A stretch of DNA of 64,000 nt from Mustelus asterias (Eukaryota): assembly GCF_964213995.1 (NCBI RefSeq), contig NC_135824.1:52762001-52826000 (forward strand). The letters run 5' to 3'. Positions 9,106-61,476 of the stretch are shown here, one piece after another. The translations under genes were made by a program, and so were the position numbers. The notes under the pieces are model-generated. The model did not search any database, was not told the origin of the DNA, and saw nothing but the letters and a program-made list of their open reading frames with translations. Each line of letters starts with the position of its first letter. Within the stretch, counting starts at the first letter, position 1.

Positions 9106-9239
9106 TATATAATTGATAATTTCCTATTGCCCTTCCTATATTTGCTACGCAAATGCAATTAAACCCAACTTCATAATAGCCAGAAGTGTATTTACCGATT
9201 TAATTATATTTGGATCGTTTCCATTTGATCGTATGGGCA

Positions 9240-9520: not shown

Positions 9521-9527
9521 AAAATAC

Positions 9528-15518: not shown

Positions 15519-15654
15519 CAATAAGGGCCGAACCATTCAGAGGGGAGGTCACGAAACATTCCTTCACACAAACGGTAGGGGAATTCTGGAACACTTTCCC
15601 CCACAGAGAATGGTCGAAGGCTGATGCTCAATTGGACATTTCAAGACTAAGATT

Positions 15655-15885: not shown

Positions 15886-16789
15886 CTGGTATAGGTTTCT
15901 TGGTTAGTGCGTTGAAAAATGTGGGCTAAAGGTGAGCGAGTATCGATCAGCTATGATCTCATTGTAAAGCATTGCGGTAATGTCACTCGACTGGTAATCC
16001 AGAGCTTAATGTTCCTCGGGATATGGGCCCATATCCAACCACGGCAGTTGGTGAAATTTCAATACAATACATTAGTACCTATCTGGAACCGTGAGCAAGG
16101 AAACATCAAGCTGATTGCCACCTACTGCCAGCAACCCACTCTGCAATGATAAATCAATTCTCATCCATGTCGGAATGTCTGTTGGCATTCTCAGTCTGGC
16201 AAGAGCGCTCACTGCAACCTGGATGGGGATTTTCAAATCCCAGCAACATTGCAGCTTGGTAGCACCTTCATTGGCCCAATCGGAAAGATCATAGCTGATA
16301 GGCTGAAGCTGCAAGAGGTGTTGAGAGGACCAATAAGAGAGCCAAGCCTATTCGACTTAATCCTTACCAAGTCACAATACTAATGGATTGCAAAAAGATC
16401 TGGTGGATCAAAACAGAGCATCCATGAGGCATGGTGGGTCACCGGCAGCAGTAGAATGCTGCCGGTGTAGGGTGCTATGGCTTGCTGAACTGTGCATGAG
16501 AAAGCTTGGTGGGAGTGCAGTGCTGAGGTGTCACTCCCTACGTACCAAAATGTCCAGTGAAATGTTTTCACCTTTAATGAACACGAGTAAAGAGTTGCTC
16601 TATGTGGGATCTTCCTGCGCAAACATGTAGCGCAATCACCTGGATTACAGAAATGAGTACACTTCAACAGAGATGATGCCTTTGCTGTGATAACCGTGGC
16701 GTTGAACCAGTGTCACACAAACTCCCGACTACATTCGTTCAGAAAGTTGCACAGGTGTTGACCTAAGAATGACGCAGAGGGCGTTAAGA

Positions 16790-17125
16790 AGATTTTATGT
16801 GAGCTTGTGGCAGCTTTGTACCGTTGTGCTTTAGTTGCGACGCAGAAATAGGTCGCAAAGTCTGTCAGGCTGGGACTGTTCAGTTGCAGGGTGAAGTTGT
16901 TGCTCCCAGCATCAAGTTGGGTGGCGAAACGCGGCTGGAAATCGGGCCCACAGCCACCGTATCCGCTGCAAATCCACTCTATGGTGGCTCCCTGCTCCCT
17001 GTACCAGAACATTGTGTAAGAGCCCTTACTATCTCCTACCAAATTGCAGAACAGACTAAGGGCCTGTCACGGTCTGAAAGAAGCCGCAGGTGGGAACTGG
17101 GCTACGATGGGTGCCGCCCGAACCC
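16790..17125 (-). pseudogene. V1-B: duplicate of V1 pseudogene (V exon 16829-17125)
   Basis: Identical to V1, including the TGA at 17067-17069 and the degenerate RSS. Confidence 0.88.
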
Positions 17126-18791
17126 CTAAAGCAGATTTAAAGAAAGAAAAACGGCTTAGAACAGTCGAATGATGCAGAAAAGAGGCCTTTCGGCCCATCA
17201 TAATATACTTAGTTCTTTGAAATTGCCATCAAATTACTCTCACCCTCCGTCTTTTGCACGTAGCCCTGAAAATCCCCTCAACTGCGTATCTATTCCATTT
17301 ATAACTTTATTACGTCTTGCAGTCATTAATAAATTCGCGTAATTCACCGTATTTCGCTGTTGGCAGGGAATATTTGAGGCGAAAACACTTACAATACATC
17401 CAGTGCGCCACCAAAAAGCTGAGGAAGATGACGGGCATTCTAGGTGAGAAATCTGTTGCCTTTCTGATGAGGTAACAAGGAAGGATAATGAGTTACCAGT
17501 AAAATTCAACGGAAATGCAACCGGATGCAATTGAACTGCGCCTGAAGATCGGCCAACCAATCGTGTGCCTGGGCCACACAGGTCAGCAGTTTGAGCACAT
17601 AAGGACCATATCATTTGCTTCTGCTTGTTATTTTGCGAAATCGTGGGTCAGCACAGAAGGCGATCCCCGATATCAGAGGGTCACTTCCGGCCTGGCAGTG
17701 TAAGCAATGTTTGTCTCTCAATGTATCGCTCGGAAGGAAAATATTAGCTGGGCTTTGCATTGGATAATTGTGGGTTCTTCCTCTGTAGATGCAGGCTGCC
17801 GCCCTTCCTTCACTACAGTGTTGTTTGAACTTTCAAAACATAGCAGCAAAGCACATAGAACAGAGAAAGTGCACGAGCTTCTTGCTTGATGCAGAGAGGT
17901 ATTGAACACAAAAGCGGGAGATTGCAAAAAAATATTTATAAAGTTCTCATTGGCCAATATCTAGATTATTGTGTCCAGTTCCGGTCGCCAGAATTTAGGA
18001 CGGATGTCAGAGTCTTTGAGAAGACGTAGAGGGGGCTTATAACAATTGTTCCGGGATGAGGAAATTTCACTACAAAGTTAAATTGGAGCATCTCGGATTG
18101 CTGTCCTTGGAATGAAGGGGATTGAAGAGAGATCTGACCAAAATGAGGACAGGTTAAGATACGATCGACAAAGGAAACGTACTCCCGGGTTAGGTGGATT
18201 GGCCGAGCAAAATTGTCCCTTCATGTCAGGAAGACTAGCGAGGGTAAATGTATGCGGTTATGGGGATAAGGACTGGGTGGGATTGTGGTGAGTGCAGACT
18301 CGATGGGCCCAATGGCTCACTTCTGCACTGCAGGATTCTATGATTCAATGTTCTATGATTAGCTGATGGTTCGAGAACGCGGGAACGCAGATGCAACACT
18401 TTTTTTTGCGAGGGTGCAGTTACAGCGGGATTATGAGGAGAAATGCTATGGCGCAGCGGATGGTAATAGGTTGGAACACGCGGCCTCCAGGGTGGTTGAA
18501 ACTGAGACAATCAACTCAAAAGAAATCGAGTTGACACTGAAGGGGAGTACAATGCAGAGCTACAGGGATATAGCGGGGGAATGGATCTAATGAGCTTGTT
18601 CTGGAGAGCCAGTGTAGATTTGATGGGAGGAATAGTCGCCTTTTGTGCCGGAATGACCTGTGATTAGCACGCTGTAAAGATGAGCCGTCTTGGAAAGGTA
18701 ACGTTTCTACACAAATAGAATCTCGCTCATTCTCTTACTGAGCTTTGCATATCACGCCGGTGGGTTTGAGCGCATCTGGGAATGGTGTGGA

Positions 18792-20331
18792 CGTTTTTGT
18801 ATTAGTCTGCAGGAGGGCTGTGCCTCTGTGTTAAACTAGCTGCGCAGTAATAGGTTGCCGAGTCTATCAGCTTGGAGTCTCTCAGCTGGAGGTTCAAGCG
18901 GTTGTTGGTGGGGTCATGTTGCACCGCGAAGCGCTGCTCAAAAGCTGTGTCACAGCTGCCGGATTCACGGCACATCCACTCTATTGTCTTCCCCTGCTGC
19001 CTGTACCAATGCAATGTGTAGCTGCTTATGCTGGCTCCCTCCAACCAGCAGCTCAATTCGAGAGGCTGTTCCTGTAAAATAGCGGCCGCGGCTGGAGACT
19101 GGAGCACAGTGGGTGCAGCCCAAACCCCTGGAATAAATTTTAAGGACAATTAGATTAGAAGCAGATCTTTAAAACGTTAACAGGCAATTGTAGAATTTGT
19201 CAGTAGAGAAGGAGACGATTCGGCCAATAACATCGACAAGAACTGCCTATTAGGACTGTGGGCCTAATGGCTACACGACTATAAGACCATAAGACATAGG
19301 AGCAGAATTGGGCCACTCTGCCCATCGTGTGTGCTCCGCCAATCAACCGTGACTGTTATTTCTCTCATCCCCATTCTCCTGCCTTTTCCCCATAACCCCT
19401 GATCCCCTTTTTAATCAAGAACCTGAACCCTCGGGACACGGGAGCAAATCCTAGCACGTCAGTTTTTTTTCGGAACTTCAATGAATAAATATTATTCACT
19501 TCAAATATATATGGAAAGGAAAGATAGTCTCAATAATTGTTGCCATTCGAGCATTGGTGATTGTTGATAGAAACCTATTTTGTTCCCGCTGAGTCGGAAA
19601 TGCAGCCAGCATAATCAAGGACCCCACGCAGCACGGACATACACTCTTCCACCGTCTTCCGTCGGGAAAAATATACAAAAGCCTGAATACACTCACCAAC
19701 AGACTCAAGAACATTTTTTTCCATGCGATCATCAGACTTTTTTGAATGGTCCTATCATATATCAAGCTGATCTTTCTCTTCATCCTACCTGTAACTGCAA
19801 CATTATATTCTGAGCATGTTCCTTTCCTTGTTCCCTATGTACTCTACGAACGATATGTTTTGTCTGTATGGTGCGAAATATTGTAACCCAATATATGTTA
19901 CAATAATAATCAAATCAAATCAATGCTCCTCAGGGAAGGAAATCTACCGGCCTCACCTGGCCGGGCCTGCATGTGACTCTGGATCCAGGATATTTGACCC
20001 TACTGCTCTCAAGACAAGTTGGGATGGGCAACAATCGCCTGCATGGCGAGCGGCAACCGAATTCCATGAAATCATTTAAAAGGCCAATTACGTTAATTTG
20101 CCGCAGTTCTGACCCAATGCCCTCCCAATCCGCCCCTTCCACACCTGTGAGCATTGATGCAATTTCGTTTCGAAAACGTATATGGAACATGCGACCCATT
20201 TGAGCATAATTTCTATTCCCCGCTTCCACTGTTGGTAAAAAAATAGATTTCGCCAACCAGCACTTACAACCAATCCAGTGTCCGAGAGAAAAGGTGACCA
20301 AGATTGTGGCAGTTTCGGCTGAGATTGCCAT
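18792..20331 (-). CDS. V2-B: duplicate of V2 (probable leader 20268-20331, V exon 18831-19127, RSS 18792-18830)
   Basis: V exon identical to V2; same RSS. Confidence 0.85.
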
Positions 20332-23300
20332 CGCCTTTCTCAGGAGCTGAGGAACAGAGGCACTTAACGATAAGACGGCGCTTGTGAAATTACTCGTCTG
20401 GCATTACAAATGCCACAAGTTATGACGAACTGAACCGAATACTTGGTTGGCCAATCATGTGGCTGAATAACACATTGTCGGCAAATAGAACACACGGGGA
20501 TCATTTCCGCTGGGAGCACTGTTTCTTTTGCAAGTTTTTCCAAGTCCCCCTTCCCTGCTTTTTCTCGTTCCTACATCATTCCTTGTCTTCCTTTCTCCTC
20601 CTTTCCACCTACTATCGCCTTATTGATCATCGTTCAGAGATGAATCCATTCAGTAGTAAATGAGCATGCGTGGCGCAGCATTGCCATCTGTTGCTTTAGA
20701 GGCTGTGTGAGGCTGAGGAAACACAGCACACCAATCTCGCAATTGTTACGTTCAGAGCACGTCTACGGGCAGTGCATCTGTCGGGTGAATGCACTTGCAT
20801 CTTTATCCAGCAATTCTTTTTGTTCTGCGATTGACACTTACTCGGATTGCCAAGGACTTCTCCCACAGGAAACATGTGTTAGGCTTTGGAAAGGCCGTAT
20901 TGCTCTGGCAAACGTATTTAAGAACGGAGGGAGATAGACAACAGGGGACCACAGGCCAGTTAGCCTGACACCTGTTATTGGAGAAATCCTGCGATTTACA
21001 GAAACATAATGGCATCAAGCAGCGTCTGCGCGGTTTTGTAAAACAAAGTTTCGTTTGACAAATGTATGAGTTATTTGAGGATGTGAGGACGAGCAAAGTG
21101 GATAAAGGGCAACCACTAGACGTAGGGTGTTTTGATTTCGAAAAGTAATTCCATAGGTGCCGCAAATAAAATGTCCACACAGCAGAACAGCTCATGTTGT
21201 TGTTTACTTTCTCTCTGCTGCGTTTATTTATTGCTTTATCCGTCTTAATTATCTTTCGTTGCAGCTGGACGGGAACAATGCAGGGTCCTGCCATGAGCAC
21301 TTACTTTTGACGTAGATTCTGTTTAATTATTTGTGCAGTTGTCACAAGTGGGGAGGCGATGGCCTCGTGGTATTTTCGCAAGACTCTTAATCCAGAAACT
21401 CAGCTCATGGTCTGGTGGACCGGGTTCGAATCCCGCCACAGCACAATTTGAATTCACTAAAAAAATCTACTGATGGCCCTGAAACGATTGTCGGAAAACC
21501 CACCTGGTTCACTAATGTCCTTGAGGGAAGGAAATTTACCTTTCTGACATTTAAGTGACTCCAGAGCCATATGGTGGACTCTCCAATGCCCTCCAAGGAC
21601 ACCTGTAAATGCTGACCCAGCCAGCGACGCTCATGTCCCACGAATAAATAAAAAAATCCGCTCGCCCTGCCAAAGCGCCAAATGTATTATTTAACCGGTC
21701 CGACCCCTATATTGCCTTTTCGCACCCATGCCCCGCTTCACTGGCTCAAAACCTATTCCAGCTCTAACATTTCCCAGCGTGTTTTTGAAACTCAAGCTAT
21801 CTTTGATCTGGAGCCCGGGCTTCAAACCCGGAGGGTATCGGAAATTTCGAGCATGCGGATAATGGTTGTGAACTGCGCATGCGTAGAGCCGCTTTCTAAC
21901 TTTCTTTGGGGACCGGTGCACCTTTGTATAACAATGAACCGTGCGGAGATGGGTCAGGGAGAGAGCCCAAAACAAAGTCCCAGGTAGGGATAGAGACTGG
22001 GGATAGAAACAGATCCTGACGAAGCTAAGGCAAAACGAGGGAGTAGAGAAACAGCTATGAGTAACAGCTTTTAAGGGACGTGAGCTTGAAAGAAGCTCGG
22101 ATGATCAAAGATTAATCAAGAGAAGGTCTGAAGGTCCAACAGGTAGCTGAAGTTTGATTACTCCATTGGGGCAAATGTAACCCTTTTTGGAGAAGTTGTG
22201 TTTTGCTTGGCACAGCGGAAGATCAGGATCTGGGGTGTGAAATTGGTGTTTGAGTGTAGACTGGCGAATTCACTGGAATGGAATCTTGAGTTGGGATTGA
22301 AACCTGCAAAACGAATTGTCCTTGAAGCTGCCCAAATGCGAGCGAATCTTGGAGAGAATGCCCAAGGCAAGATCTTCAAATGTGTAGATTGGGAGCCGAC
22401 ACGAGAGAAGCTGACGATGAGTGAGATTGGTTGGCTCGCCGTGCTTACTGATGTCTTGGCGGTTTGTTGAGAAATCCATGAACACTGTCTTGGTCGCATC
22501 TGCTATTTATGGTATAGGTGTGGAGTTCGACCACAGTTGACAGTAAACTGTCAACACCGAGGGTCAACCCACCATGCTCAATCAACCCAACTCGCAAATC
22601 CCCGGACCACGGGAGAAAACCATTCGCGTGTATCGAATGTGTCTCCCCACTGCAGGTGTATTGAACATAAATTGTAATTCATTTAATCCCTTTGTCCATA
22701 TGCAGTAACGTTTAATTTTGCTGTTTAAACACCACCGGATCTTTGTGACTTTATTCACTGAGCAAATGCCTTGAATGTCAAACCTTGTCTACTTTAAACT
22801 CAACGTCATTGATCTCTGACTAATAGCCTGGTGGTCTGGCCAATGATTGTAACAAGCTGTACAGAGGAAATAGAAGCAGGAGAATGCCATTTGTCTCACT
22901 GAGTATCCCCTGCCATTCCATAAGATAGCAATTGAGAATTCACCATATTGGCATGGATTTTGAGTCATACGAAGGCCAAAATATGCAAGGGTGTTAGACC
23001 TTCCTCCGTAAGTAACATTATTGGACCAGACAGGTATTTCACAAACCAATAATAGAATAATAAACATTACTGAAATTACCATTGTTATGTAGGTTTAAAC
23101 AATGGAATTCAAATTTGACCAATAACCTTGGAGGATTTAAAGCCTAGTCCACCAGAGGATTAGTCTGGGTCTCTGGATTGCCAGACCATTGATATTATCA
23201 TCCCACCATCACCTCAAGGTTGCCGCACTGAATACAGGTATGATAGACTTCAGATGTGTGAATGGCCTTGTTATTTTTATAGAAGAAAATGTCGAGTGGA

Positions 23301-24629
23301 TACTTGAGGAAATTGTTCAGAAGTGGACAGAATAGATCAGAAAATATTATATCCCCCAAGTTCAAGGGCTATTCGGGATGGAAAACAGTCGCCCATATCC
23401 CATCAAAGAATCAACCTGCACCATCTCCAATGCCTTCATATCTTTTTCAACCTGTTTGCCCAAGATTGGACAGAGTAGTCCAAAAGAAGCCAAAAAATCT
23501 TCTAGATATTACTTATTACTTGTCTGGACAATCAGTTCCTTTGTCGTTAAGCGGAAGAATAGGTCGACCTTTTTGGAAATTGTGCTTTTAAGACATTTGA
23601 GTACCAGCGGAGGTTTCCGGTTGGTTTGTTTATCATTAACCTGGAACCTCTCCTCAGTAGCGCTCGTTACACGCATTGAGACTTCAACCAATAAGTTTCT
23701 GGCCAGGAGTGTAAATGATACCAACTGAGCCACGGTTGACCCTCAGAGTTAGCAATGTATAGGATTAATGGGCATTCCAACGTCCATTTGCAAGCACGGC
23801 CGGGTGCCGGGTGATTTGATAGAAGCTCCCCATTCTTCCAAGAAGGAGGCCACGACATCCATCGTTCCGGAATTATCCATTCTCCCTTGTTACTTTTCTG
23901 AAAAGTAACTGCTTATGGGATCATAGAATTATAGAATCCCTACAGTGCAGAAGGAGACCATTCAGCCCATCAGTTCTGCACCGACCACAATCCCACCCAG
24001 ACCCTATCCCCATAACCCCATGCATTTACCCAAGCGAGTCCCCCTGACACTAAGGGGCAATTGAGCATGGCCAATCCACCTAACCCGCACATTTTTGGAC
24101 TTCACGATGTATCTGATTCAATAGTGAACACGACTGTTAATTTCCCGCAGTAGAGTTACATCAAAACCATACCTTTCCTAATAAAAGACCCTCATTATTG
24201 TAAATAACTTTCGTTCTTATATTTTCCCTGCTTTGGGAAAAGCAATCCCAGTTCCGCTCATCTCTCCATGTAACGAAAGATGCTTCACGCTGGTACCTTT
24301 CTGATCAATACCCCTTACTTTAAGCAGAATAATTGCATCTTCTCATATCTAACCAGCTAACTGACATGACTGGTAACATTCCGGGAAATCTCTTCTGCTC
24401 TTCTACTCTTTCTGTCGTTCCTTCCTAGTTTGTTAAATTCTGGCTTGCTTTCGTTCTTTCTTTCTATTTTTCGTCCACACTTCCCTGCACTGCTTCTTTC
24501 TTTCAATCTTTCCAGCTTTAATCTGTCGTTTTCACTCTCTCCTTGTTAAAAGGGCACGCAGTCTGTAAAATAAACCCACACTGACGCAATGGTTTCATTC
24601 ACAAGTGTTTCCTGTTGCCTTTGTTCAAT

Positions 24630-25190
24630 AGTTTTTGTTGAACTGCTCCATCTCTCTGAGTCACTGTGAAGACTCCAGGCGCAATAATACACGGCCGAAT
24701 GATTCACCCGCAGGCTGGAGGATTCCTGGTCGCTTGGCGGTGAAACTGTCCACCGTCCCCTTTGGATTCACGTCTTGCACAACTGCGGAGTGAAACATCA
24801 ACTGGGGCTCCTTGCCGGGGTGTTGCCTGTACCAGAACCTCCTACCAGCGCTGCTGCCCTTCACGGTGCATTTCAGAACCACTCCGTCCCCGGGATGTTT
24901 CGAGACAGCAGCGGGAAACTGGAGGAAATTCTCTGAGTTCACGCCTGAGTAAAGTACGGGGAGAGAAAGAAGTCAATAAACAGAGACATTCCCATAGTGG
25001 GGAGAGCGAAAAGGGAATGAATGATAAAAGCGACAAAGGCAACAGAGGGACAGAAAGTGAGGAAGATGGAGGGGGACGGGGGGTGGCGGGGAGGGGGGGG
25101 GGGGAGGGGGGGGGGAGGTGGTGGAGCACGAATTTCTGAGTAAATATGCTTACAATGAAATAAAATCACCAAGCCCAGGACCAGGTACAT
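24630..25190 (-). pseudogene. TRBV: V3-B: TRBV30-like V pseudogene (leader 25154-25190, V exon 24669-24944, RSS 24630-24668)
   Basis: Net 20-bp deletion in FR3 near 24727 causes a frameshift; RSS intact. Confidence 0.9.
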
Positions 25191-28100
25191 CTTTTGCTTG
25201 ACACCTCCCGCCTAATAACGGAAGAAATTAATCCAGGAGCGCTGAGTGTAGTGAGGAGCCAATCAGGTGTCCTAAACCACTGAGGAAACGATCAAGATCG
25301 CAAGGTAATGAGGACCATTTCGACACGCCCCTTCCAACCAATCAAAATTTATATAATTGATAATTTCCTATTGCCCTTCCTATATTTGCTACGCAAATGC
25401 CATTAAACACAACGTCATAATAGCCAGAAGTGTATTTACCGATTTAATTATACTTGGATCGTTTCCATTTGATCGTATGGGCAGCACGTTGGCACAGTGG
25501 TTAGCACTGCTGCCTCACAGCGCCAGGGACCCGGGTTCGACTCCCGGCTTAGGTCACTGTCGCTGTGGGTTTGCACGTTCTCCCCGTGTCTGCGTGGGTT
25601 TCCTCCAGGTGCTCTGGTTTCCTCCCACAGTCTGAAAGACGTGCTGGTTAGGTGCATTGACCCGAACAAGCGCCGGAGTGTGGCGACTGGGGGAATTTCG
25701 CAGTAACTCCATTGCAGTGTTAATGTAAGCCTTACTTGTGACTAATAAATAAACTTTAACTTTAAAATACGTAACAGTTTCGATGGGCTGAATGGCTTTG
25801 CTTGTTCCGATGGAACTGGCTGGGGGGGATGCTCTTGAGATTGGTTGAATTACATTGGTCTTCCGTGTAACAGCCTCGGGAAGGGCTAAACGTCTCCCCC
25901 TTTTCCTTTGTATCAGGCTCGATTGGGGATACATGGTCACCTCCTCTTCCTTTGTAACAAGTTCGAGGGGCTGAATGGCCTCACCCTCTTCCTTGGTAGC
26001 AGGCTCGAGAGAGCGCTTGAGTAGCCTCATCCTGATCCGTCGACATACGTTTTCAGTCACTGAAGTCTCTGCTTGTCAAAGAACGCCCCTTTCTCTCCCT
26101 GTGGGGAAAGAAACCGCTGGGAGTGGATCAAGAGAAAATCTTGTGTTATTCTCCCCTTCTTTCTATGTACCATTTGGTCATTGGTTCATTCTTGCCTTGT
26201 CCCTTTGCTTCTTCCTAACTTTCCTCCCTGCTTAAGCAAGTCGTTTTGTCCATCTCATTAGTAACGCACAACTGGATTGTAGAATTTCTAACACATTCCT
26301 CCTCCTAATGGACTAGGAGTGACATTTCTAAGTGACATTTAAAAAATAACTGGAAACACTCAGCAGGTCAGGGAGTCTCTGTGGAGAGAAAAACCGAGTT
26401 AATAGTTCAGACCAGTGACATTTCATCAGAACTGATATTTCTTTCTCCCTCATCTGGTTATCCGGCTCCACAAATCATTAAAAACGAAGAGGACAAAAAG
26501 GATCATGAAATGTTTTCCAAAGATAAATTTTGCATCCAGGAAACTGGAATACAGTTCCAAAATGGAGGAAGTCCTACTTGAGTTGTTACAGAACTCCGGG
26601 CAGCTGGAACACCTCGTTCAGTTTTAAGCAGCACATTTAGCAAAGGTGATTGGGGCTTAGAGAGAATGCACAGTGGAATATACTGAATACTTTTGGGGCT
26701 TAAAGTGTTAAATCATGAGGACAGTTCATAAAAGGTTGCCTGCACTCCGCTGAGTATAAAGAATTAAGGAGTGAACTCATTTAGTTATTTTTAGCCCGTT
26801 TCAAAATGGTTGATAATGTGGAAATAACAATATAATTTCCTGTGGTGCCGTCGTCCAGATCAAAGACGGATAATCCCAAAATTAAAGACAACGTCTTCAG
26901 ACCATAACACCTGGGGAAACGTAAAGTTTAAAATTTATTTATGATGTGGAGATGCCGGTGTTGGACTGGGGTGGTTAGAGCAAACAGTCTCACAACACCA
27001 GGTTAAACTCCAACAGGTTTATTTGGAATCAAGAGCTCTCGGAGTGTTGCTCCTTCCTCAGGTGAATGTTGATATGCGCGATCTTCTTGGAGGTCCTCTC
27101 CTCTTTGAGACGGCGGTTTGCCGTGTCAGTAGTAGCCATGATGTGGGGATGCCGGCGTTGGACTGGGGTGGGCACAGTAAGAAGGCTCACAACACCATAT
27201 TAAAGTCCAACAGGTTTATTTGGAATCACGAGCTTTCGGAGCGCTGCTCCATCCTCAAGTGAGTGACACACTCACTTTGACTTTAACCTGGTGTTGTGAG
27301 ACTTCCTAAATATTAACTCTGCAATGAAGTTACTGTGAAAACCCACTAGTCGCCACACTCCGGTGCCTGCTTGTGTACACAGAGGGAGTATTTAGCATGA
27401 CCAATGCACCTTAACCAGCACGTCTTTCAGACTGTGGGAGGGAAGCGGAGCACCCGGAGGAAACCCACGCAGACTCGAGGAGAACGTGCAGACTCCACAC
27501 AGACAGTGACTCAAGCACGGGAATCGAACCCGAATGCCTGGCGCTGTGAGGCAGCAGCGCTTGTCACTGTGCCAAGATGTGCAGTTCAAATTCAAATGAT
27601 AAATCTGAATTTGAAAGCTACTCTCAGTAATGGTGCCCATGAAACTATCACGGTATATTGTAAATACCCACCTGGTTCACTAATGTCCCTGTAGGGAAGG
27701 AAATCTGCCGTCCTCACGACCGACACGTCACTCCGGATCCACAGCAATGTGCTTGACTTCAAACTGCGCTAATGGTCTATCAAGCCCATCATTTCAAGGG
27801 CGATTAGTTATGGGCAACAAATCCTGACCTTGCCGTCGGCACCCACATTAAATCAAATATTTTAAAAAACGTCTTTATTCAAAAGGTAGTGGAAGTGTGG
27901 AACATCCACCAGATACATCACTGTCTTATGCTCACGGTTTCCTCAATGATTTGTGATGAAGAGTTAAACGGACTCGAAACGTTAAATATTTTTCTCTCAC
28001 GACAGATGCTGCCAGACCTGCTGAGGCTTCCCAGCTTTCTCTGTTTTGCTCCTGAACTATTTGTTTTGCTCAGAATCAAATTCACCCACACGTGGAAACC

Positions 28101-29391
28101 AGCTCCCTCTGCTGACTGAATTTGCTCACTCCCTCAGCAACAGGATGTACTGAAATTCGACTGCAGCAGCATATCCTTCTATTTCTCTCTTCCACGTGTC
28201 TTTATGCAACTTCTCCTGAAAAGCAAATACGCTACTCACCCCAATCCAACTTCGAAGCAGCGAGGTTCGCAATCCACATTCTTAAGAGTATTGATAGGCA
28301 GAGGGAACTGGGTGTACAGGTACACAAGTCACTGACAGTGGCAACGCAGGTGGAGAAGGTAGTCAAGCAGGCATACGGCATGCTTGCCTTCATCAGTCGG
28401 GTCATTGAGTTTAAAAATTGGCAAGTCATGTTGCAGCTTTATAGAACCTTCGTTAGGCCGCACTTGGAATATAGTGTTCGATTCTGGTCGCCACGTTACC
28501 AGAAGGATGTGGAGGCTTTGGAGATGGTGCAGAAAAGATTTATCAGGATGTTGCCTGGTATGGAGGGCATTAGCTATGAGGAGAGGTTGGAGATATTAGG
28601 TTGTTCTCACTGGAACGACGGAGGTTGAGGGGCGACCTGAGAGAAGTGTACAAGATTATGAGGGGCATGGACAGATGGATAGTCAGAAGCTTTTTCCCAG
28701 GGTGGAAGAGTCAATTACTAGGGGGCATAGGTTTAAGGTGCGAGCGGCAAGGTTTAAAGGAGGTGCACGAGGCAAGTGTTTTACACAGATGGTGGTGGAT
28801 GCCGGGAGAGGTAGTGGAACGAGATACGAAAGTGACATTTAAGGGACGTCTTGACAAATACATGAATAGGATGGGAATAGAGGGATACTGTCTCTAGAAG
28901 GGTAAGGGTTTTTATTTCAGTCGGGCAGCATGGTGGGTGCAGGCTTGGAGGGCCAAAGGGCCTGTTCCTGTGCTGTAATGTTTTTGATCTTCGTTCTTTG
29001 TTGTAAAAACAATTTCTACACAATTCCCAGTTAAATGTATGAATGCCGATCTTTTATTTATGAGGCCTTGTGTTGGTCTTTCACTCAAGTGAAAATATGT
29101 TCCCTCTGTCTAATCCATTCAACCTCCAAATTATCTATCAGGTCCACTTCAAACTTCTCTTCAGTCGAAACGAATATGGGCAGTCTTCCCAATAAGTTAC
29201 AATCCCTCAGTTCTGGGAACATCCTTGCGAATATTCCCTTTCACCTTTTCCAGTGTTCCTCAAACTAATCGGTCATTTTCATTGTAACCCTTGACTTTTA
29301 TTGTCAATAACATGTTCACTCGACAAGACAACATGGTGAGGCGAACCACCGCGCAGAGTTGTCAGCGACAGCTGTTTCCTGCTGCCTTTGG

Positions 29392-29903
29392 GGTTTTTGT
29401 TGAGCTGCTCCATCTCTCTGCGCCACTGTGACTACTCCAGGCGCAGTAATACACGGCCGAGTGATTCGTCAGCAGGCTGGTGGCATTTAGGTTGAACTGA
29501 TTCATATTCGGTCTCACGGCGGTGAAGCCGTCCACCGTCCCTTCTGAATTCACGTTTTGTGCAGTTGTAGAATAAAACATCAGCTGCAGCCCGCTGCCCG
29601 GAAATTGTCTGTACCAGTACATGTAACCGCTACTGGCTCCCTTAGCTTCACAATCCAATTTCACTCCATCCCCAACGAGTTTGGAGACAGCGGCGGGGGT
29701 CTGATGGATCTCCACTGAGTTCACATCTGGAAAAGAAATGGGGTGGGTAGGAGGTTAATAAATAGTGAAATTCTGGTGGTGAAACAGCAAAAGGAAATAA
29801 AAGACACTTGAGGGAGAAGGAAAGGAAATCATAAGAGATTGTTGTCCAGAAAAAAACATGACTTACATTGAAATAACACCGTGAGGCCTAGTAACACATA
29901 CAT
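29392..29903 (-). CDS. TRBV: V4-B: functional TRBV30-like V segment (leader 29867-29903, V exon 29431-29726, RSS 29392-29430)
   Basis: Open exon ending YYCAWSS, consensus heptamer and nonamer, canonical splice sites. Confidence 0.93.
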
Positions 29904-32379
29904 CTTTAATGTTAACCTTTTGTTGTGTTCGAAAAATATGCGGTAACACTCGAGACCAGTATTCTGGTGAGTCAACTCGGCGTCTGTCAAATCATTGAGA
30001 AAACCTGAAGGGCCAAAGGGAACCCCACCCTCCCTGGCAGAAAGACACGCCCTATTTCTATGATTCGCTGAAAGTGGGAGCAGGAAATGCCAAAAGGGGC
30101 AGAAACAAATGAAGCGAGTGTGCAAAGAAAACGGATAAAATATGAGCGAGAGATTCAGCAGGTCTGACAGCACCTATGGAGAGAGAATAGGGCCAACGTT
30201 TCGTGTCTGGATGTCACCATCGTCCGCTCTGAAAAAGGGCAATCCAGGCTCGAAACGTTGGTTCTATACTCTCTCCGCAGATGCGGTCAGGCCTGCAGAG
30301 ATTATCCAGCATTTTCTGCTTTTGTTTCAGATTCCAGCATCCGCAGTATTTTCCCTTTGGACAAAATGTGACATCGCCCTAAGCAATTTAGAGTGGCGCA
30401 TCTTCTAACTGGCGAGAGGATCTGTGGCGAAGGAAAGGAATTCAGCGCCCTAATTAACTAAAACCAGCCAGGCCTCGAAAAAACGGACTTCAAATTCTAA
30501 TCGAATGCTCGCATTTGCGCCATGGAAACTGGGATATCAATGCGGCGAAGTTTCCTTAAATTGTAACAGAACTCTAGAACACTGGGCTCAGATCTGGGAA
30601 GGCACATCCAAACCAACGACATAACACCCACATCCAGGGGCGGCACGGTGGGCACAGTGGTTAGCATTGCTTCCTCACAGCGCTGGGGTCCCAAGTTCAA
30701 ATCGCGGCTTGGGTCACTGTCTATGTGGAGTTTGCACGTTCTTCCCGTGTCTATCTGAGTTCTCTCTGGGTGCTCCGGATACCGCCCACAGTCCGAAAGA
30801 TGTGCTGGTTCGGTGTATTGGACATGCTAAATTCTCTCTCAGTGTACCCGAACAGGCGACGGGTGGATTTTCACAGTAACTTCATTGTAGTGTTAATGTA
30901 AGCCTACTTGTGACACTAGTAAATAAAGAAGGATGTAGGGATTGCTGGGAAGGATTGCAAAATAGATTCACCAGCATGATATGGGGGCTTGTTTTACAAT
31001 CCCGGGCGTCGCTGACAAGGGCACGAAACGTTGCGCATCCCGAATTGCCCTTAAAAACTGAGTGGTATTCCAGAGGGAAGTAAAGAGTCAACCACATTGA
31101 TCTGACGTCAAATGCTTTTAGAATAATCGACAATTATTCCGCGGTCACCATTACTTAGACCGGCTTTCAATTTCAAACTTTGTTTTTTGTTAATTCAATT
31201 CAAATTCCATTGGCTGCCAAGGTGAGCCCTGAACATTGCCCGCAAGAGCCCGAACTGCTGGACTAGTGACCCAGTGACAGTAATACTACACCACGGGCTG
31301 CACCGACATCAACCAATAAAGCATAAAGACAAGTTCCTTCAGCTTGTCTGCCTTCCCCTGTGTTCAGCAGGTTGAGGGAGGGGTGAACGTATTTGCATTT
31401 TTAGTATTTCAGAAGGAGAATTTATGGTCAACTGAATAATGTCCTGCAGAGTTGGGAGACAGCACCATACACTGTCACAATTAGAATCATAGAAACTCTA
31501 CAGTGCAGAAAGAGGCCATCTGGCCCATCAAGTCTGCACCGACCACAATCCCACCCAGGCCCTACCCCCACATCCCTACACATTTACCCGCTAATCCCTC
31601 TAACCTACGCATCTCAGGACACTAAGGGGCAATTTTAGCATGGCCAATCAACCTAACCCGCATATCTTTGGACTGTGGAAGGAAACCGGAGCACCCGGAG
31701 GAAACCCACGCAGACACGAGGAGAATGTGCAAACTCCACACAGATAGTGACCCAAGCTGGGAATCGAACCCAGGTCCCTGAAGCTGTGAAGCAGTCGTGC
31801 TAACCACTGTGCTACCGTGCCGGAAGTAGTGCCGAACCATTCAGAGGAGAGGTCACGAAACGTTCCTTCACACAAACGGTAGGGGAATTCTGGAACACTT
31901 TCCCCCACAGAGAATGGTCGAAGGCTGATGCTCAATTGGACATTCCAAGACTAAGACTGGTGTAGATTTCTTGGTTAGTGCGTTGAAAAAGTGGGCTAAA
32001 GGTGGGCGAGTATCGATAAGCTATGATCTCATTGTAAAGCATTGCGGTAATGTCACTCGACTGGTAATCCAGAGGTTAATGCTCCTCGGGATATGGGCCC
32101 ATATCCAACCACGGCAGTTGGTGAAATTTCATTAGTACCTATCTGGAACCGTGAGCAAGGAAACATCAAGCTGATTGCCACCTACTGCCAGCAACCCACT
32201 CTGCAATGATAAATCAGTTCTCATCCATGTCGGAATGTCTGTTGGCACTCTCAGTGTGGCAAGAGCGCTCACTGCAACCTGGATTTGGATTTTCAAATCC
32301 CAGCAACATTGCAGCTTGGTCGCACCATCACTGGCCCAATCGTAAAGATCATAACTGATAATCTGAGGCTGCAAGAGGC

Positions 32380-36624: not shown

Positions 36625-37658
36625 GCTTTTTGTACGACGCATCTCGCCTTTTACTGCGCTGTGCCTTACTACAGGCGCAGTAAAAGACGGCTGAACGTGA
36701 CAGATTGGCCGACGTCAACAGAAAGAGCATGTCGCTGGGCCTCCGGGCTGTAAAGGGCTCCTTGGTGTACGGAGTAACGTCTCCCTTGGCGATAGAAAAG
36801 AACAGGGCTTCGGGTTGCGAGTCGGGATACTGGCGGTACCAGTACAGATAGCTGTAGCTGGATTCGTTCAGCACACAGCTCACCTGGAATGGCTCACTCC
36901 CCGACACCGTCAGAGACACCGGGTCCTGTTCCACAAAAGAGCTTCTGTCCCCTGTGAAACACAGAGTGAGATTCAAACTCAGAATATAATTAAATACTAT
37001 CTTCCTGTATATAGATGTGTTTCCTACCCGCTATCTCTCCTCCTTTCTCTATCTCTTCACCTCTGCTTACTCCCTCTGCCTATGTTTCTCCTTCTCTCTA
37101 TATTTCTATGCCCTCCTTTTCTCTCTCTGCCATTTAGTCTATTTTCTTCCGTCTGTTTTGTTTCCTCTATCGATGTTTCCTTTACTATCTCTCTTGTATC
37201 ATCTCACTCGGTATGTACATGCTCCCCCTCTCTTTCTCTCTCTGCCTCTGTCTGTCTCCATCTCCTCTGCCCTGTATCTCTCCCTCACTCTCTATTAATT
37301 CCTCAGTCTCTATTAATGTTTCTTACTTTCCCCTCAGTATGTCTGACTCTCTGTTTCACTGCCTCAGAAACGCCGTTTTTCTCTCTATCCCTGTACCTTT
37401 AAATCCCTATTTCTGCCTTCCTCTGAATATCGTGCTCTCGCTCCCAAACCCATTATTCCTGCAGCTGTCTCTCTCTCTCTCTCTCTCACTATCTCTCCTC
37501 TCATCCTCCCTCGCTCTATATTTATCTCATTCCCTCGCTCCAGGAACACAAACTGCGTTGAAAGTAATCGGGTGCTGACCGGAGCTGCTCTCCACACTCA
37601 GACAATGAAGGACGATTGTCAGACACACGGCTCCACGGTCCAGCAGTCTCAAGGCCAT
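36625..37658 (-). CDS. V6: divergent TCR V segment, apparently functional (leader 37580-37658, V exon 36664-36951, RSS 36625-36663)
   Basis: 79-nt phase-1 leader MALRLLDRGAVCLTIVLHCLSVESSS with gtcagc donor; exon ...YLYWYRQ...SAVFYCACSK; RSS cacagcg-23-acaaaaagc. Confidence 0.85.
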
Positions 37659-54800: not shown

Positions 54801-56343
54801 ACTGAGGGACTGCCGTATGAGGAAATATTAAACAGGTTGGGTTTGGACTCCTTGGAGTTCAGAGAAATGGAAGGTGATATGATTGAAACTTAGAATTTAA
54901 ATAGATTCTAAGGGGGTTAGACAGGGTAAAGGTTTAGGGATTAATTGCACTCTTCCACACTGGAATGCTGCATACAGTTCTGGTACCCTTGCCTAAAATG
55001 GATATAGTAATATTGGAGGTAGTCCAAAGGAGATTCACTAGACTAATTCCTGGGATGAGTGGGTTGTCTTATCAAGAGAGACTAAATAGTCTGGCTCTGT
55101 ATTCGTTGGGGTTCAGAAGAGTGAGAGGTGACCTTATTTAAACATACACGATCCTGAGGGAGTTTGAGAGGGTAGATGCGAGATGTTTCCACAAGTGGGA
55201 GCGCCTTGAGCAAGGGGACATAGCTACAAGAGAAAGGGCCGGTCATTTAACACTAATGTGCATAGAAATTGCTTCTTGCAGAGGGTGGTGAATCTTTGGA
55301 ACTCTTTGCCCCAAAGGGTAGTGAAGGCTGGATCATTAGAAGTACTTAAAGTGAAAGTGGATGAATATTCGATAGATCGAGGTAGAGGGTTGTGGGGAAA
55401 TGGCACAGAAAAGGAGCTGAGGCCGGCATAGATCAGCCATGATTGTATTGAATGGCCGGAAAGGCTTGAAGGGCTTGCTGGCCGCCTCCTGCTTCTATTT
55501 CTTGTGTTCTCTTGGGAGAGGACAGAGTCGTTGAATAAGAGTGCGCTCATTTAATACCGATCTGAGGAAGAATTTATCTCAAGGTCTGGTGGATCTGTGG
55601 AATTCTTCAGCCCAGCAAGCTGTGGAGGTCAAGTCCTAGACATTTTCAGGTTATTTATTAGTCATAAGCAAGGCTTACATTAACACTTCAATGAAGTTAC
55701 TGTGAAATCACTAGTCGCCACACTCCGGCGCCTATTTGGGTTAATGCACTTAACCAGCACGTCATTCGGACAGTGGGAGGAAATCGGAGCACGCTGAGGA
55801 GACCCACGCAGACACGGGGAGAATATGCAGACTCCGCGCAGAGAGTGACCCAAGCTGGGAATTGAACCTGGGTCCCCCCTGACACTGTGAGACAGCAGTG
55901 CTAACCACTGTGCCACCATGCGACCCTTTTTCAAGGCTGTGATCGAGAGGGTTTTAATCAGTTGGAGAATGAAGGGTTACGGGGTTAAGGCAGGAAAGTG
56001 AATTTAGTGAGTGTTAGATCAGCCATAATCTTATTGAAAGCTGACGCAGGCCTCAACGGGCTGAATGGCCCACCACAGTTCCTATTTCTTCTGGCTCTAG
56101 CAGATCTCACCCCAGTCTTCTGTATTCCATTGGTGGATATCGGAAGCCACTGAGCCTTCCCTGCTAGTTTTAAAGTCTCAGTTCTGACGTCAGACATTAC
56201 CGATCTTCCTGTGCTCCTCTTGCACGGTGCCTATATCTAATCATTACTCTTCGTTTCACGATAAATTTCAACCTGCAAAACCGACACCGGTAGAACCAGT
56301 TTTCTCATTCGCAGCTGTTTCCTGCCGCCTTTGGGGTTTTTGT

Positions 56344-58586
56344 TTTTTTTTTCGAACAGAAATCAAAATACAAAGGAAACTTAAAAACATCAAATTAAAA
56401 TGTGATTATTAGGGTCAATAATGCACCCCAACCCCTGCAGTGCCCAGCGGGCGCGGAAAGCGTCAACCTCGCCCGTGGGCACCGCATGCTCCCTCTCCAG
56501 GGACACCTGGCCGCGAACGTAGCCGCGGTAGAGGGGAAGACAGTGAGGATGGACAGCCCCCTCGATCGCCCGCAGCCTGGACCGGTAAATGGCGCGTTTC
56601 GCCAGGCCCAGGAGCAGGTTCACGAGGAGGTCGCCATCCCGACCCTCCCCTCTCCGCACCGGGTGTCCATAGATCAGGAGCGTGGGACTGAAGTGCAGAC
56701 AAAACATCAACAAAAGGTTCTTTAGGAAAACATAAAGGGAGTGCAGCCTAAGACACTCAACATAGACATGGTCCACGGACTCCACAAGGCTGCAGAAAGG
56801 GCAGTCTTCGGAGCCCGTGAACCAGTGAATCCTACGGTTGTGCGGAACTGCTGCATGCATCACCCTCCACCCCAGGTCCCCGACGTAATTGGGGGAGATC
56901 CCTCCATAGAGGGACCTCCAGTGGGGACCTCCGCCGCCCGGCGGCAACAAGGCCCGCCAAGGTGTATCCGGGCGACAGGCGAGGAGGCAGTAATGGAGGG
57001 TGTGCAGCAGCAGCCCGCACAGGAAACGCCTCCGCGCGGTAGAAAAAGGCACGGAGGGCATTTCCGCGAGGCGGCTCAGGCTGTGGGGCACCTCACCCAG
57101 GGGAGGGGGCTGAGGCTTTGGGCCAATGCGGAATTCCGCCCGAACAGGGGAACGCTCGGGCGGGATCCCACTGCACGCCTGCGCCGTCTCAAGTTTGCGT
57201 GCAGTTTCGGGGCCGAGCACGACCGTCCTAAGGTCTAGGATGGCTTTGGCCGCGCGCCAGACGGACGTCCCCGTGCGCTCAGCCAGCACGCGGGGACTCA
57301 TCCAGCCCGCCCCTCTGCCATCGAGCACGTCCCCGATTCTGGTCACCCCGGTGTCCACAGCCCTCCTCTCCGCCAGCCACCTGAAGTTATACGGCTGGAG
57401 GAGCGGATTCCTGAGCAGCGGCTCTCGCACGAGAGCCGCTACTCCTGACGGGGGAGAGCTGCGTCACGAGGCGACCTTGTTCCAGACAGTGAGGAGGTCC
57501 TGGTAAAAGACGGGCAACTCCTGCAGGGCGGTCGGAGCACGCCCCAGTTCGATATGCAGGAGCTGCACGTCATAATTGAGGCCGTGCCACTGGCGGAAGA
57601 AATACGTCGCCATGGCACACCACTGTGGAGGGGGCTCAACGTAAAGGTACCTCTGCAGGGCCTGGAGGCGGAAGGTCGCTATCTGAGTGCGGAGGCACAC
57701 CAGACCTTGTCCACCCTCCTCAAGCGGGAGATACAGGACCGCAGCAGGGACCCAGTGCAGTCGATTGCCCCAGAAGAACCGCACGAGGGTTCTCTGGATA
57801 TCGGTGACAAAGCCAGGGGGAGGGGTCAAAGGGACCAGCCGGTACCACAGCATGGAGGTGACCAGCTGGTTTATGACGCGAGCTCGCGCCCCGTAGGACA
57901 GCACTCGGAGCAGTCCTGTCCAGCGACTCAGGCGGGCGGAGACTTTGGCCTCCAGCTCCCGCCAGTTCGCCGGCCAGGATTCCTCGGCTGGGCAGAGATG
58001 GGCCCCCAAGTAGAGGAGGTTGGTCCTGCTCCAGGTGAAAGGCCTGAGCTCCTCCGGAAGGGGGTCCGTCTCCCAAGGACCGACAAGGAGTCCGGAGCAC
58101 TTGGCCCAGTTGATCCTGGCGGAGGACGCGGCGGAGTACACCGCCTGGCATTCTCGCATCCTCCGCAGGTCAACCGGGTCCGTGAACATGAGGAGCACGT
58201 CGTCGGCGTAAGCTGACAGGACCACCCCTACGTCCGGTCCGCGCAGGACCAAACCTGACAACCTCCTCCGCAAGAGGCGCAGGAATGGCTCCACGCATAC
58301 GGAATACAGTTGGCCGGACAAGGGGCAGCCCTGCCGTACTCCTCTCCCGAAGCGAAGGGGCGCCGTCAGGGACCCGTTAACCTTAATCAGACACTCTGCG
58401 GCAGAGTACAGTAATCGGATCCGGGCGACAAAATGCGTCCCGAACCCGAATGCCCGCAGAGTCCCGAGTAAATACTCGTGCTCCACCCTGTCGAACGCCT
58501 TCTCCTGATCTAATGACAAGAAGGCGCCCGACAGACCAGTCCTCTGGGTGTGATGTATTAGGTCCCGGACCAGGTGGAGATTGTCA
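56344..58586 (-). mobile_element. 5'-truncated Tx1-clade (L1-Tx1) non-LTR retrotransposon: ORF2 RT plus C-terminal zinc-binding region
   Basis: LSLDQEKAFDRV, GVRQGCPLS and YADDV motifs; CPFC...ESVDHVYVEC; ORFs 57464-58594 and 56390-57430 are in frame, separated by one TGA; GC-rich; short 3' UTR and poly(A) at 56344-56352. Confidence 0.93.
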
Positions 58587-59125
58587 TGCTCCATCTCTCT
58601 GAGTCACTGTGAATACTCCAGGCGCAGTAATACACGGCCGAGTGATTCACCCGCAGGCTGGAGGAATTTAGGTTGAACTCATAGTCCTTCGGTCGCTTCG
58701 CTGTGAAACCGTCCACCGCCTCATTTGGACTGACATGGTCTTCACTGTTGGAGAAAAACATCTGCCGCAGCTCCCTCCCCAGGTATTGTCTGTACCAGTA
58801 CATCCTGAGAGTACTGCTCCCCTCCACAGTGCAGTTCAGTCTCACTCTCTCCCCTGGAGATTTGGAAACGGCGGCGGGAGTCTGGCGGATAGTCTGCGAC
58901 TTCACATCTGTGGAAGAGACAGAGAGAGGAGATCAGGAAATTGGAACACTCTGGGTGGTGGAATGAGAGGAAAGAGAAAAAGAGAAGAAATTGAAGTGAA
59001 ATAGAAAGAAAGAAAGCAAGAGAGAGGTCAGCAAGTGGAAAGGAAAGTTAGATGTTGAATAAGAACTGTTGTTGGAAAAGTTCCTTACGGTGAAACATGA
59101 GGAACAGAGCCAGCAACAGATACAT
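58587..59125 (-). pseudogene. TRBV: V10: TRBV30-like V, open frame, RSS split by a retrotransposon (leader 59089-59125, V exon 58612-58907, heptamer 58605-58611; orphan nonamer at 56335-56343)
   Basis: Leader MYLLLALFLMFH; YYCAWSI; only 18 bp of spacer remain before Tx1 sequence begins. Confidence 0.92.
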
Positions 59126-59614: not shown

Positions 59615-61476
59615 TCACAAGCAAGGCTTACATTAACCCTGCAATGAAGTTACTGTGAAATTTCCCTAGTCGCCACATTCCCGCGGCTTTTCGGGTCAAT
59701 GCCCCTAACCAGCACATCTTTCAGACTGTGAGAGGACACCAGAGCACCCGGAGGAAACCCACGCAGACAGGGGGAGAACGTGCAAACTATACAGACAGTG
59801 ACCCAAGCCGGGATTCGAACCCAGGTCCCTGGCGCTGTGAGGCAGCAGTGCTCACTATCGTGTCACCCATATTGTTGAGGGCTTTTGATGGACAAACTGT
59901 TCCCTCCGCTGGGAGACCAACAACTGAGAATAATCCGATAATTCGAGTTAGCAATGAGAGGTGAAGTTGTTGAAACAAATAGGATTGATTTGACGGGGTA
60001 AATAGTCAGATGATGTCTCCCTTCAGAGGGAATCGAGAACTCGGTATCCGTTCAAGAAGGAGCCGCCCAGTTCAGAGGCAGATGAGGAGGAAGTTCTTTG
60101 CTGATGATGAATATTTGGGCTCTTCACGCGTAGATCAGAGGGGCTGGCTCATGGGATATAGTCAAGGCTGATATAGATTTTGAATAAAGGCAAAATACTG
60201 CGGATGCTGGATTCTAAAACAAAAACAGAAAATGCTGGCGAAATTCAGCAAGCCTGACAACATCAGAGGAATGGCGGGACGGTGGGGGGAGGGGGGGGGG
60301 TGCGGGGGAGGATTCCATAGAGACTCATAAACGTCTATCAAGATTAGACAGGGTAGATGCAGGGAGGATGTTCCCCGTGGTGGGGGAGTCCAGAACCAGC
60401 GGTCACAGTGTGAGGATTCAGGGTAGACCAGTTAGGACGGAGGTGAGGAGATATTTCTTCACCTAAAGAGTGGTGAGCCTGTGGAATTCATTACCACAGG
60501 AAGTAGTTTTGATGCCAAAACATTGAATGTATTCAAGAGGCGGTTGGATATAGCACTTGGGGCGATTGGGATCAAAGGTTATGGGAAGAAAGCAGGATTA
60601 GGCTATTGAGTTGAATGACCAACCATGATCGTAATGAATAGCGGAACAGGCTCGAAAGGCCAAATGGCCTCCTCCTGCTCCTATCTTCTACGTTTCTATG
60701 TTTCATCTGTGGAGAGAGAATAGAGCCAACTTTTGGAGTCTGGGCTCTGATGAAGGGTCATCCCAAATCGAAACACTTCTTTTGAATTTTTAGGGGGTAA
60801 ATGGTAATGGTTTCGGGATGGGTGCAAGCAGGAATATGGGGTAAAGGGCACAATGAGATCAGCAATGATCCTATTGAATAGCGGCCCCAGCTCGAGGGGC
60901 CGAGTGGCCTACTCCTGTTACAAAGCAGTTTATGTCTTCCTTGGCGATATCAGATTCAGACTCGACTTCCACGAATTTAGAAGTTTGATCGAATCAAAGA
61001 GTTTGAGATTAATACGGTAGTCACAAGCTCTCAACACGGTAGCACGGTGGTTAGCACTGCTGCCTCGCGGTGCCCGGGACCTGTGTTTGATTCCCGGCTC
61101 GGGTCACTGTCTGTGTGGAGTTTGCACCTTCTCCCAATGTCTGCATGGGTTTCCTCTGGATGCTCCAGTTTCCTCCCACAGTCTGAAAGACGCGCTGGTT
61201 AGGTGCATTGACCCGAACAGGCGCCGGAGTGTGGCGACTGGGGGAATTTCACAGTAACTTCATTGCAATGTTAATGTTAAGCCTTACTTGTGACTAATAA
61301 ATACACTTTAACCTCATCCTTGTTAATCTACCGCCAGTGTATTTGCATTCATTCTCTCGGTTTTATGTTTATCGAGTGTCCTCTGGTTGTACTAAACATG
61401 TTGATTCTGCCAGGAGGTTGCACATGAGGCACCTCCTAGTTTTGTTCATTCACAGGTGTTTCCTGCTGCCTTTTGG

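What the first reader, a model, noticed from the sequence alone, without database searches (positions are those of the whole stretch)
56335..58611. Tx1-clade retrotransposon inserted inside a 23-RSS spacer, separating heptamer and nonamer by 2.26 kb
Seen: V10 heptamer plus 18 bp of spacer (58587-58611), then 2243 bp of Tx1, whose poly(A) abuts the intact nonamer acaaaaacc (56335-56343) and the family's usual 3' flank. About 5 bp of spacer (gttca) are lost and no TSD is visible. The element is young (one nonsense codon in ~730) and the V ORF is still intact. Established: many Tx1-clade elements are sequence-specific for multicopy targets. Inference: either poly(A) priming on the T-rich nonamer strand by chance, or a preference for RSS-like or nicked sites, which would be a new way transposons edit immune repertoires.
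Basis: partly seen in the sequence, partly recalled or inferred. Interest (0 to 1): 0.7.

Follow-up and report, generated by a model that had tools for sequence, protein, structure and literature searches.

The report
Retrotransposon breaks shark T-cell gene signal
A piece of a very common jumping gene landed, most likely by chance, inside the cut-and-paste signal of one shark T-cell receptor gene segment and probably switched that segment off; this is ordinary gene decay, not targeted editing of the immune system.

Summary
A 2.24-kb fragment of a Tx1-like LINE splits the 23-RSS of a shark TCR-beta-like V segment, putting heptamer and nonamer 2261 bp apart; the V ORF is intact, no cryptic RSS replaces it. 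Corrections: 4 bp (5 if one A is counted) of spacer are lost, the 5' junction has 2-bp microhomology, and the 'poly(A)' looks like a private 8-9-nt A-run: in three public runs other copies continue at that base into a shared 30-nt hairpin. RSS targeting is not supported. Public contigs show a family of order 10^3-10^4 copies with a 5'-truncation gradient, and in run X1 the A-run/nonamer junction lies on one single-copy contig. The nonamer's T-rich strand is a natural priming site (8 of 160 such sites in the window), the window is full of repeats, and 3 of the 12 other Vs are damaged by ordinary mutation. An intact V ORF is expected by chance (P about 0.86). Closest named relative: Xenopus Tx1L (57%). 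No genome was held, so no target-site logo could be built; a mild enrichment at nonamers, or specificity for a different repeat, remains open.

The parts
59089..59125 (-). Leader exon of the V segment (ATG ... phase-1 GT donor)
   Evidence: 37 nt, donor GTAAGG, splices in frame to the V exon
58612..58907 (-). V exon, TCR-beta-like, open frame with C-W-C hallmarks, ends YYCAWSI
   Evidence: V-set E=4e-14; best single-domain hits are TCR V-beta chains; 66% to a Chiloscyllium punctatum protein
58605..58611 (-). RSS heptamer CACAGTG
58587..58604 (-). First 18 bp of the 23-bp spacer; its last 2 bp (58587-58588) are a microhomology shared with the element
   Evidence: paralogous spacers; X5 loose end behind 58588 continues the element frame
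56390..58588 (-). 5'-truncated ORF2 of a Tx1L-related LINE: RT, spacer region, C-terminal CxxC-H-C knuckle; one internal stop at 57464-57466; endonuclease and ORF1 absent
   Evidence: the knuckle is read from the sequence, Pfam gave no hit for the C-terminal half
56353..56389 (-). 37-nt T-rich 3' UTR remnant, no AATAAA-type signal; other copies continue from 56353 into a shared 30-nt hairpin
   Evidence: loose ends before 56353 in X3 (10 contigs), X5 (2), X10 (6)
56344..56352 (-). A-run of 9 nt (8 added plus possibly the spacer's last A); private to this locus in X1; 4 bp of spacer missing, no TSD
   Evidence: record 1 ends 30 nt past 56352; joints with GAAC between
56335..56343 (-). Orphaned RSS nonamer ACAAAAACC
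56006..56334 (-). Unique 3' flank of this V; about 90% identical flank in another species is not followed by the element
   Evidence: records 1 (X1) and 9 (X10)

Best explanation
A copy of an abundant, dispersed shark LINE of the Xenopus Tx1L lineage retrotransposed in the germ line into a TCR-beta V 23-RSS without targeting it. Inferred steps: the strand carrying the nonamer's T-tract was nicked at the T-tract/purine step; its 3' end paired with a short A-run and primed reverse transcription; the family's 3' hairpin segment was skipped or lost, leaving 8-9 A; synthesis stopped inside the RT region and the cDNA joined the upstream spacer through a 2-bp microhomology, deleting 4 bp and making no TSD. 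Shown: the anatomy, the deletion, the microhomology, the abundance and the private junction. Consequence (inferred from the 12/23 rule): the V can no longer recombine and is a new pseudogene with a still-open ORF, one of several dead Vs in this cluster.
For: Anatomy. Abundance and 5'-truncation gradient: X1 depth 363,786 (56465-56565) and 31,473 (57576-57676) against 13.5 in the unique flank; X10 119,827 and 34,056 against 9.9 (ratios; summed depth is only an order-of-magnitude guide). Private junction: record 1 (depth 13.5, 0 differences) runs unbroken through nonamer and A-run and stops exactly 30 nt past 56352, where 18 contigs of three runs carry another continuation (k=31 overlap is recalled). 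Chance: RSSs are 0.82% of the window but 8 of 160 T-tract/purine sites; 23 SINE copies, 5 CR1 pieces, 47 repeat segments outside V exons; expected RSS hits for this family 0.005-2.4 over assumed genome sizes, RSS numbers and copy numbers. No cryptic rescue: best nonamer 4/9, best heptamer 3/7. P(open V ORF at the element's stop density) 0.86. Other Vs damaged: frameshifts at 8417 and 24668, CCCAGTG heptamer at 49823. Target-site truncation is reported for SINEU elements of crocodilians (PMC4494074, passages); microhomology at 5'-truncated L1 junctions (PMC2912911, passages); L1 consensus TTTT/AA (PMC1950540, passages).
Against: No genome was held, so no second insertion site with both flanks was seen; dispersal is inferred from depth. 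The nearest named relative, Tx1L, is site-specific, and crocodilian Tx1 families mostly have targets. The shared 30-mer could be a target rather than 3' UTR. Only 24 of 2056 loose ends were visible. The site reads T-tract/G with an interrupting G, not TTTT/AA. The 5' junction is not spanned by any listed contig.
Confidence: 0.65

Rival explanations
1. The family is sequence-specific, but for another multicopy repeat: the shared 30-nt hairpin after 56353 is its target, the element normally ends there without a tail, and this copy is an off-target insertion. Still chance with respect to the RSS.
For: Same 30-mer follows the element in X3, X5 and a second species X10; no AATAAA or family poly(A) at this point; the RT groups with Tx1L, which inserts into the transposon Tx1D, and Tx1-Mar families insert into Mariner-N4_AMi.
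Against: The 30-mer folds into an 11-pair-type hairpin starting at its first base, -17.0 kcal/mol in the element's sense (0 of 1000 mononucleotide shuffles as low), as a LINE 3' UTR stem-loop would (recalled); no common 5'-side flank among the listed loose ends; the 30-mer is absent from the window at 3 mismatches, so it is not the local SINE; this copy does carry an A-run.
Confidence: 0.19
2. Endonuclease-independent capture: an RNA or cDNA fragment patched a pre-existing germ-line break in the spacer, with the A-run as filler.
For: Shortened at both ends, no TSD, small target deletion, microhomology: features listed for non-classical L1 insertions (PMC1920257, passages).
Against: That paper's criteria also require no poly(A) and divergence from the TTTT/A site; here an A-run faces a T-tract, as in ordinary priming. 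The break is not at the RAG nick position.
Confidence: 0.1
3. The family prefers RSS nonamers (or RSS-like, RAG-bound DNA) and repeatedly removes V segments from shark repertoires.
For: One clean hit at the spacer/nonamer boundary of a multicopy sequence; relatives are target-specific; nonamer strands are 5% of T-tract sites in the window.
Against: Thousands of copies against hundreds of RSSs; junction private in X1; 0 of 12 other RSSs in the window hit; 0 of 24 listed loose ends RSS-like; element-free form of the flank in another species that also has the family at high copy.
Confidence: 0.04
4. Assembly artefact joining a repeat between two halves of an RSS.
For: No listed contig spans the 5' junction, and none laid carries this V's own letters at six V positions.
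Against: 3' junction bridged with 0 differences in X1; the two sides rebuild one RSS minus 4 bp with a microhomology, which a mis-join would not do; the tool states that its filter removes records.
Confidence: 0.02

Closest known systems
Xenopus laevis Tx1L (Tx1 ORF2, YTX2_XENLA) and turtle/sturgeon relatives
   Same: 57% identity over 99% of the RT half, turtle copies 55-58%; 46-49% over the whole fragment; same open clade in a quick tree (SH-aLRT 87).
   Different: Tx1L inserts at a fixed site in Tx1D (passage); this copy lies in an RSS, has no TSD, and its family is very abundant. The downstream Tx1L target letters AGTT quoted do not follow the nick on the priming strand here.
Target-specific Tx1 families Keno (U2), Kibi/Koshi (microsatellites), Tx1-Mar (Mariner-N4_AMi)
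   Same: Same clade; TSD, target truncation and blunt sites are reported for crocodilian SINEU.
   Different: The flanks here are neither structured RNA genes (0 Rfam matches in the window) nor microsatellite nor transposon.
Mammalian L1 5'-truncated insertions (TPRT at T-tracts)
   Same: A-run against a T-tract, 5' truncation with microhomology, dispersed high copy number.
   Different: Different clade; no TSD; A-run short and placed upstream of the family's usual continuation.
Non-classical, endonuclease-independent L1 insertions (Sen et al. 2007, PMC1920257)
   Same: 3' shortening, no TSD, target deletion.
   Different: An A-run is present and the site is T-rich.
V pseudogenes with open ORF and defective RSS
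   Same: Intact coding region made unusable by its RSS (listing of PMC212687, PMC2212273; 12/23 rule is established knowledge).
   Different: Cause is a 2.2-kb LINE in the spacer; no such case appeared in the listings.

Membership tests
Tx1 clade non-LTR retrotransposon | LINE-type RT closest to Tx1 members | tested here: met
   RVT_1; best named full-length hits Xenopus Tx1 ORF2 57%, turtle 58%
Tx1 clade non-LTR retrotransposon | RT phylogeny groups with Tx1L | tested here: inconclusive
   Quick tree only (37 rows; 33 chosen from 125 stored proteins, all biased to Tx1-like hits, 3 distant outgroups); clade with Tx1L, turtles, sturgeon SH-aLRT 87, not starred
Tx1 clade non-LTR retrotransposon | N-terminal APE endonuclease and gag-like ORF1 | not testable with these tools
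   Lost by 5' truncation; relatives P0007, P0008 carry PF03372
Tx1 clade non-LTR retrotransposon | C-terminal Cys/His knuckle | tested here: inconclusive
   CxxC...H...C visible in the translation; no Pfam hit
Sequence-specific Tx1 family | More than 20% of copies share a flank type (criterion in PMC4494074) | tested here: inconclusive
   A shared 30-mer follows many copies but may be 3' UTR; no genome
RSS-targeting element (proposed) | Recurrent insertion at RSS nonamers | tested here: not met
   Junction private in X1, 0 of 24 listed loose ends RSS-like; 0 of 12 other RSSs hit; weak enrichment not excluded
Classical TPRT insertion | Target-site duplication | tested here: not met
   4-bp deletion instead
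Classical TPRT insertion | 3' A-tail paired with T-rich target | tested here: met
   9-nt A-run abuts nonamer, though apparently not at the family's usual end
Non-classical (EN-independent) insertion | 3' truncation and no TSD | tested here: met
   (3' truncation depends on the 30-mer being UTR)
Non-classical (EN-independent) insertion | No poly(A) and site unlike TTTT/A | tested here: not met
   A-run present, T-rich site (criteria)
TCR-beta V segment | V-set domain closest to TCR V-beta, leader exon, 23-RSS | tested here: met
   shark origin
TCR-beta V segment | Linkage to D-beta, J-beta, C-beta | not testable with these tools
   Not in the window; no genome
Functional V segment | Heptamer and nonamer 23 +/- 1 bp apart | tested here: not met
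   2261 bp apart; best cryptic nonamer 4/9

The most novel reading that the evidence does not exclude
This Tx1L-related family primes preferentially on RSS nonamer strands, so that LINE insertion at the spacer/nonamer boundary is a recurrent, germ-line route by which shark Ig and TCR V segments are switched off, with polymorphic filled and empty alleles shaping individual repertoires.
Probability: 0.04. Interest if true: 0.7.

Novelty: new member of a known kind. Interest (0 to 1): 0.2.

Why it matters
As it stands it is a tidy example of V-gene birth and death: a LINE kills a V segment through its RSS while the ORF stays open, so ORF-based annotation would wrongly count it as functional. It also flags an abundant shark Tx1L-related family with a conserved 3' hairpin whose target preference seems undescribed in the listings seen. 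If insertions were enriched at nonamers, transposons would be a directed force on immune repertoires; the evidence gives that low odds.

Tried and rejected
No whole genome held, so no copy census or logo. Second copy in the window: none by blastn or tblastn. Other copies with flanks: exact 24-nt scan and protein scan of metagenome contigs empty; viral contigs empty; genome contigs gave 20 loci of distant (29-47%) L1/Tx1-like sequence in MAGs, used only as outgroup (3 of 20). Accessions of P0121, P0122, P0048, P0045, P0125, P0123 could not be looked up, so P0048 could not be tied to a named family. No RNA holder listed: expression and repertoire use untested. Zero depth of X3 and X5 over the unique flank is uninformative. 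Christensen et al. 2000 (Tx1L target) not held. Careful tree did not finish; quick tree used. RAG nick as cause rejected on position. The 4-mer AGTT of the Tx1L target occurs at the 5' junction on the non-priming strand; rejected as chance. Cryptic RSS rescue rejected. TCR-beta promoter decamer (motif recalled) not found upstream of this V. First leader coordinates were wrong and were corrected. Earlier findings: none. Paper searches (listings only) showed no title or abstract start on a retrotransposon inside an RSS spacer or on shark Tx1 targets; the library lacks most subscription papers. Supplementary target figures of PMC4494074 were not read and may bear on the identity of the 30-mer.

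Full report
Setting. The window holds 13 minus-strand V segments with 23-RSS. The V in question is a V-set domain whose best single-domain solved relatives are TCR V-beta chains and whose best named relative is a Chiloscyllium punctatum protein at 66%: a shark TCR-beta-like V cluster. D, J and C are not in the window and no genome was held. Leader (59089-59125) and V exon (58612-58907) splice to an open 111-codon frame.

Observation. The insert is one ORF2 frame of 732 codons with one internal stop, starting inside the RT. It is 57% identical to Xenopus Tx1 ORF2 and 55-58% to turtle copies over the RT half, and 74% to an unnamed ENA protein over 619 residues. A quick tree joins it to that protein (99) in an unresolved clade with sturgeon, Tx1L and turtles (87). 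It works like an L1/Tx1-type LINE; membership of the Tx1L lineage is likely but not firmly resolved.

Junctions, from contigs of 4 of the 22 listed runs. The 3' junction is bridged in X1 by a 377-nt contig with no difference; X1 may be the source sample, so this argues against a mis-join but is not independent support. No listed piece spans the 5' junction, and at six V positions every laid contig differs from the window, so this V's own contig was not among those laid. Empty-form joints (56344 to 58587) carry GAAC in X10 and GAGC in X3; they may be paralogues, but they fix the loss at 4 bp. An X5 contig matches 57833-58588 with 10 differences in 756 nt and continues in the RT frame, so 58587-58588 is a 2-bp microhomology. 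In X10, another species, a contig matches the unique flank over 336 nt (32 differences) and leaves 23 letters unaligned beyond 56344: the flank is not followed by the element there. In-window paralogues share only 47 bp of this flank, so this is probably the empty orthologue; orthology is not proven. An X1 joint of the empty form with 63 letters on its short side could be a paralogue or a diverged empty allele, so fixation is undecided.

The 'poly(A)'. Loose ends before 56353 in X3 (10 contigs, agreement 0.97), X5 (2) and X10 (6, 0.93) show that other copies continue at exactly this base into a shared GC-rich 30-mer. X1 record 1 ends 30 nt past 56352, the overlap expected if the graph branches there (k=31 recalled); being unbroken and single-copy in depth, it implies that no other X1 locus has an A after this exact end. 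The 30-mer folds at -17.0 kcal/mol in the element's sense, beginning at its first base (0 of 1000 shuffles), is absent from the window, and no poly(A) signal precedes the A-run. Either the copy lost a 3' hairpin (skipped in reverse transcription, cut from the RNA, or deleted later) or the hairpin is the family's real target. The data do not separate these.

Targeting. Summed contig depth over the element is 2,300 (RT) to 27,000 (3' end) times the unique flank in X1 and 3,400 to 12,000 times in X10. The tool warns that this is no copy number, but the order of magnitude and the 3'-to-5' decline indicate thousands of mostly 5'-truncated copies, more than there are RSSs (hundreds to about a thousand; assumed). 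None of 24 listed loose ends (2032 hidden) is RSS-like and none of the 12 other RSSs is hit. Chance is enough: RSSs are 0.82% of the window, which has 47 repeat segments outside V exons (inflated by a 16-kb tandem duplication), and nonamer strands make up 8 of 160 T-tract/purine sites. Over assumed genome sizes, RSS counts and copy numbers the expected number of RSS hits for this family alone is 0.005-2.4. The break is 18-22 bp from the heptamer, not at the RAG nick (established knowledge). Against this: Tx1L and many crocodilian Tx1 families are target-specific (PMC1950540 and PMC4494074; passages and section 15 read), and I saw no second complete insertion site.

Mechanism and effect. Most likely target-primed reverse transcription at the nonamer's T-tract with 5' truncation, microhomology joining and 4-bp target loss (inferred; parallels). 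Endonuclease-independent capture fits three of the features in PMC1920257 (passages) but not the A-run at a T-tract. The split RSS has no cryptic replacement, so the V should be unusable; not tested in RNA. Its open ORF is no sign of use: at the element's stop density an ORF of this length stays open with P 0.86, and the element itself decays neutrally (8 of 11 listed near-fixed differences non-synonymous; 414 rows of that table hidden). V loss is routine here: frameshifts at 8417 and 24668 and a CCCAGTG heptamer at 49823. X1 also holds a V about 90% alike (record 8), closer than any in the window (at most 77.5%), which may cover the loss.

Novelty. Nine paper searches (listings only) showed no report of a LINE inside an RSS spacer, but insertional loss of a V segment by an abundant LINE is an expected kind of event. 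Verdict: real, most likely chance; new member of a known kind; interest 0.2. RSS targeting about 4%.

Noticed in passing
window 1-15652 and 16599-31956: Recent tandem duplication of about 16 kb (95.9-99.4% identity) that copied three V segments (2240/18830, 8417/24668, 13145/29430).
   Followed up: partly
window V segments with heptamers at 8417 and 24668: The duplicated pair is frameshifted by different lesions (a 1-bp loss versus a 20-bp loss near the 3' end), i.e. apparently broken independently.
   Followed up: partly
window 49785-49823: V with open ORF but heptamer CCCAGTG (CAC broken); probably non-recombining.
   Followed up: no
window 36625-37000; 2202-2600 and 18792-19200: Two further V subfamilies (ending YCACSK and YYCAASL), about 52% identical to the main subfamily, with different RSS spacers.
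   Followed up: no
window, e.g. 55641-55930, 59615-59867: 23 copies of one SINE (resembles shark HE1; name recalled) and 5 CR1-like 3' pieces in 64 kb.
   Followed up: partly
loose ends at window 56353: A conserved 30-nt hairpin follows this Tx1 family in two species; the two differences between species fall in the loop and at the loop-closing position. 3' UTR or target unknown.
   Followed up: partly
P0125: A Carcharodon carcharias 'KIF25' model contains a stretch 38% identical to the element's C-terminal region: exonised or mis-annotated Tx1 sequence.
   Followed up: no
L001-L020: Bacterial MAG records carrying eukaryotic L1/Tx1-like RT genes, several in tandem at about 8.8-13 kb spacing on single contigs (L004/L012/L018/L019; L009/L016/L017/L020; L013/L014): probable host contamination, possibly a tandem or site-specific array.
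   Followed up: no
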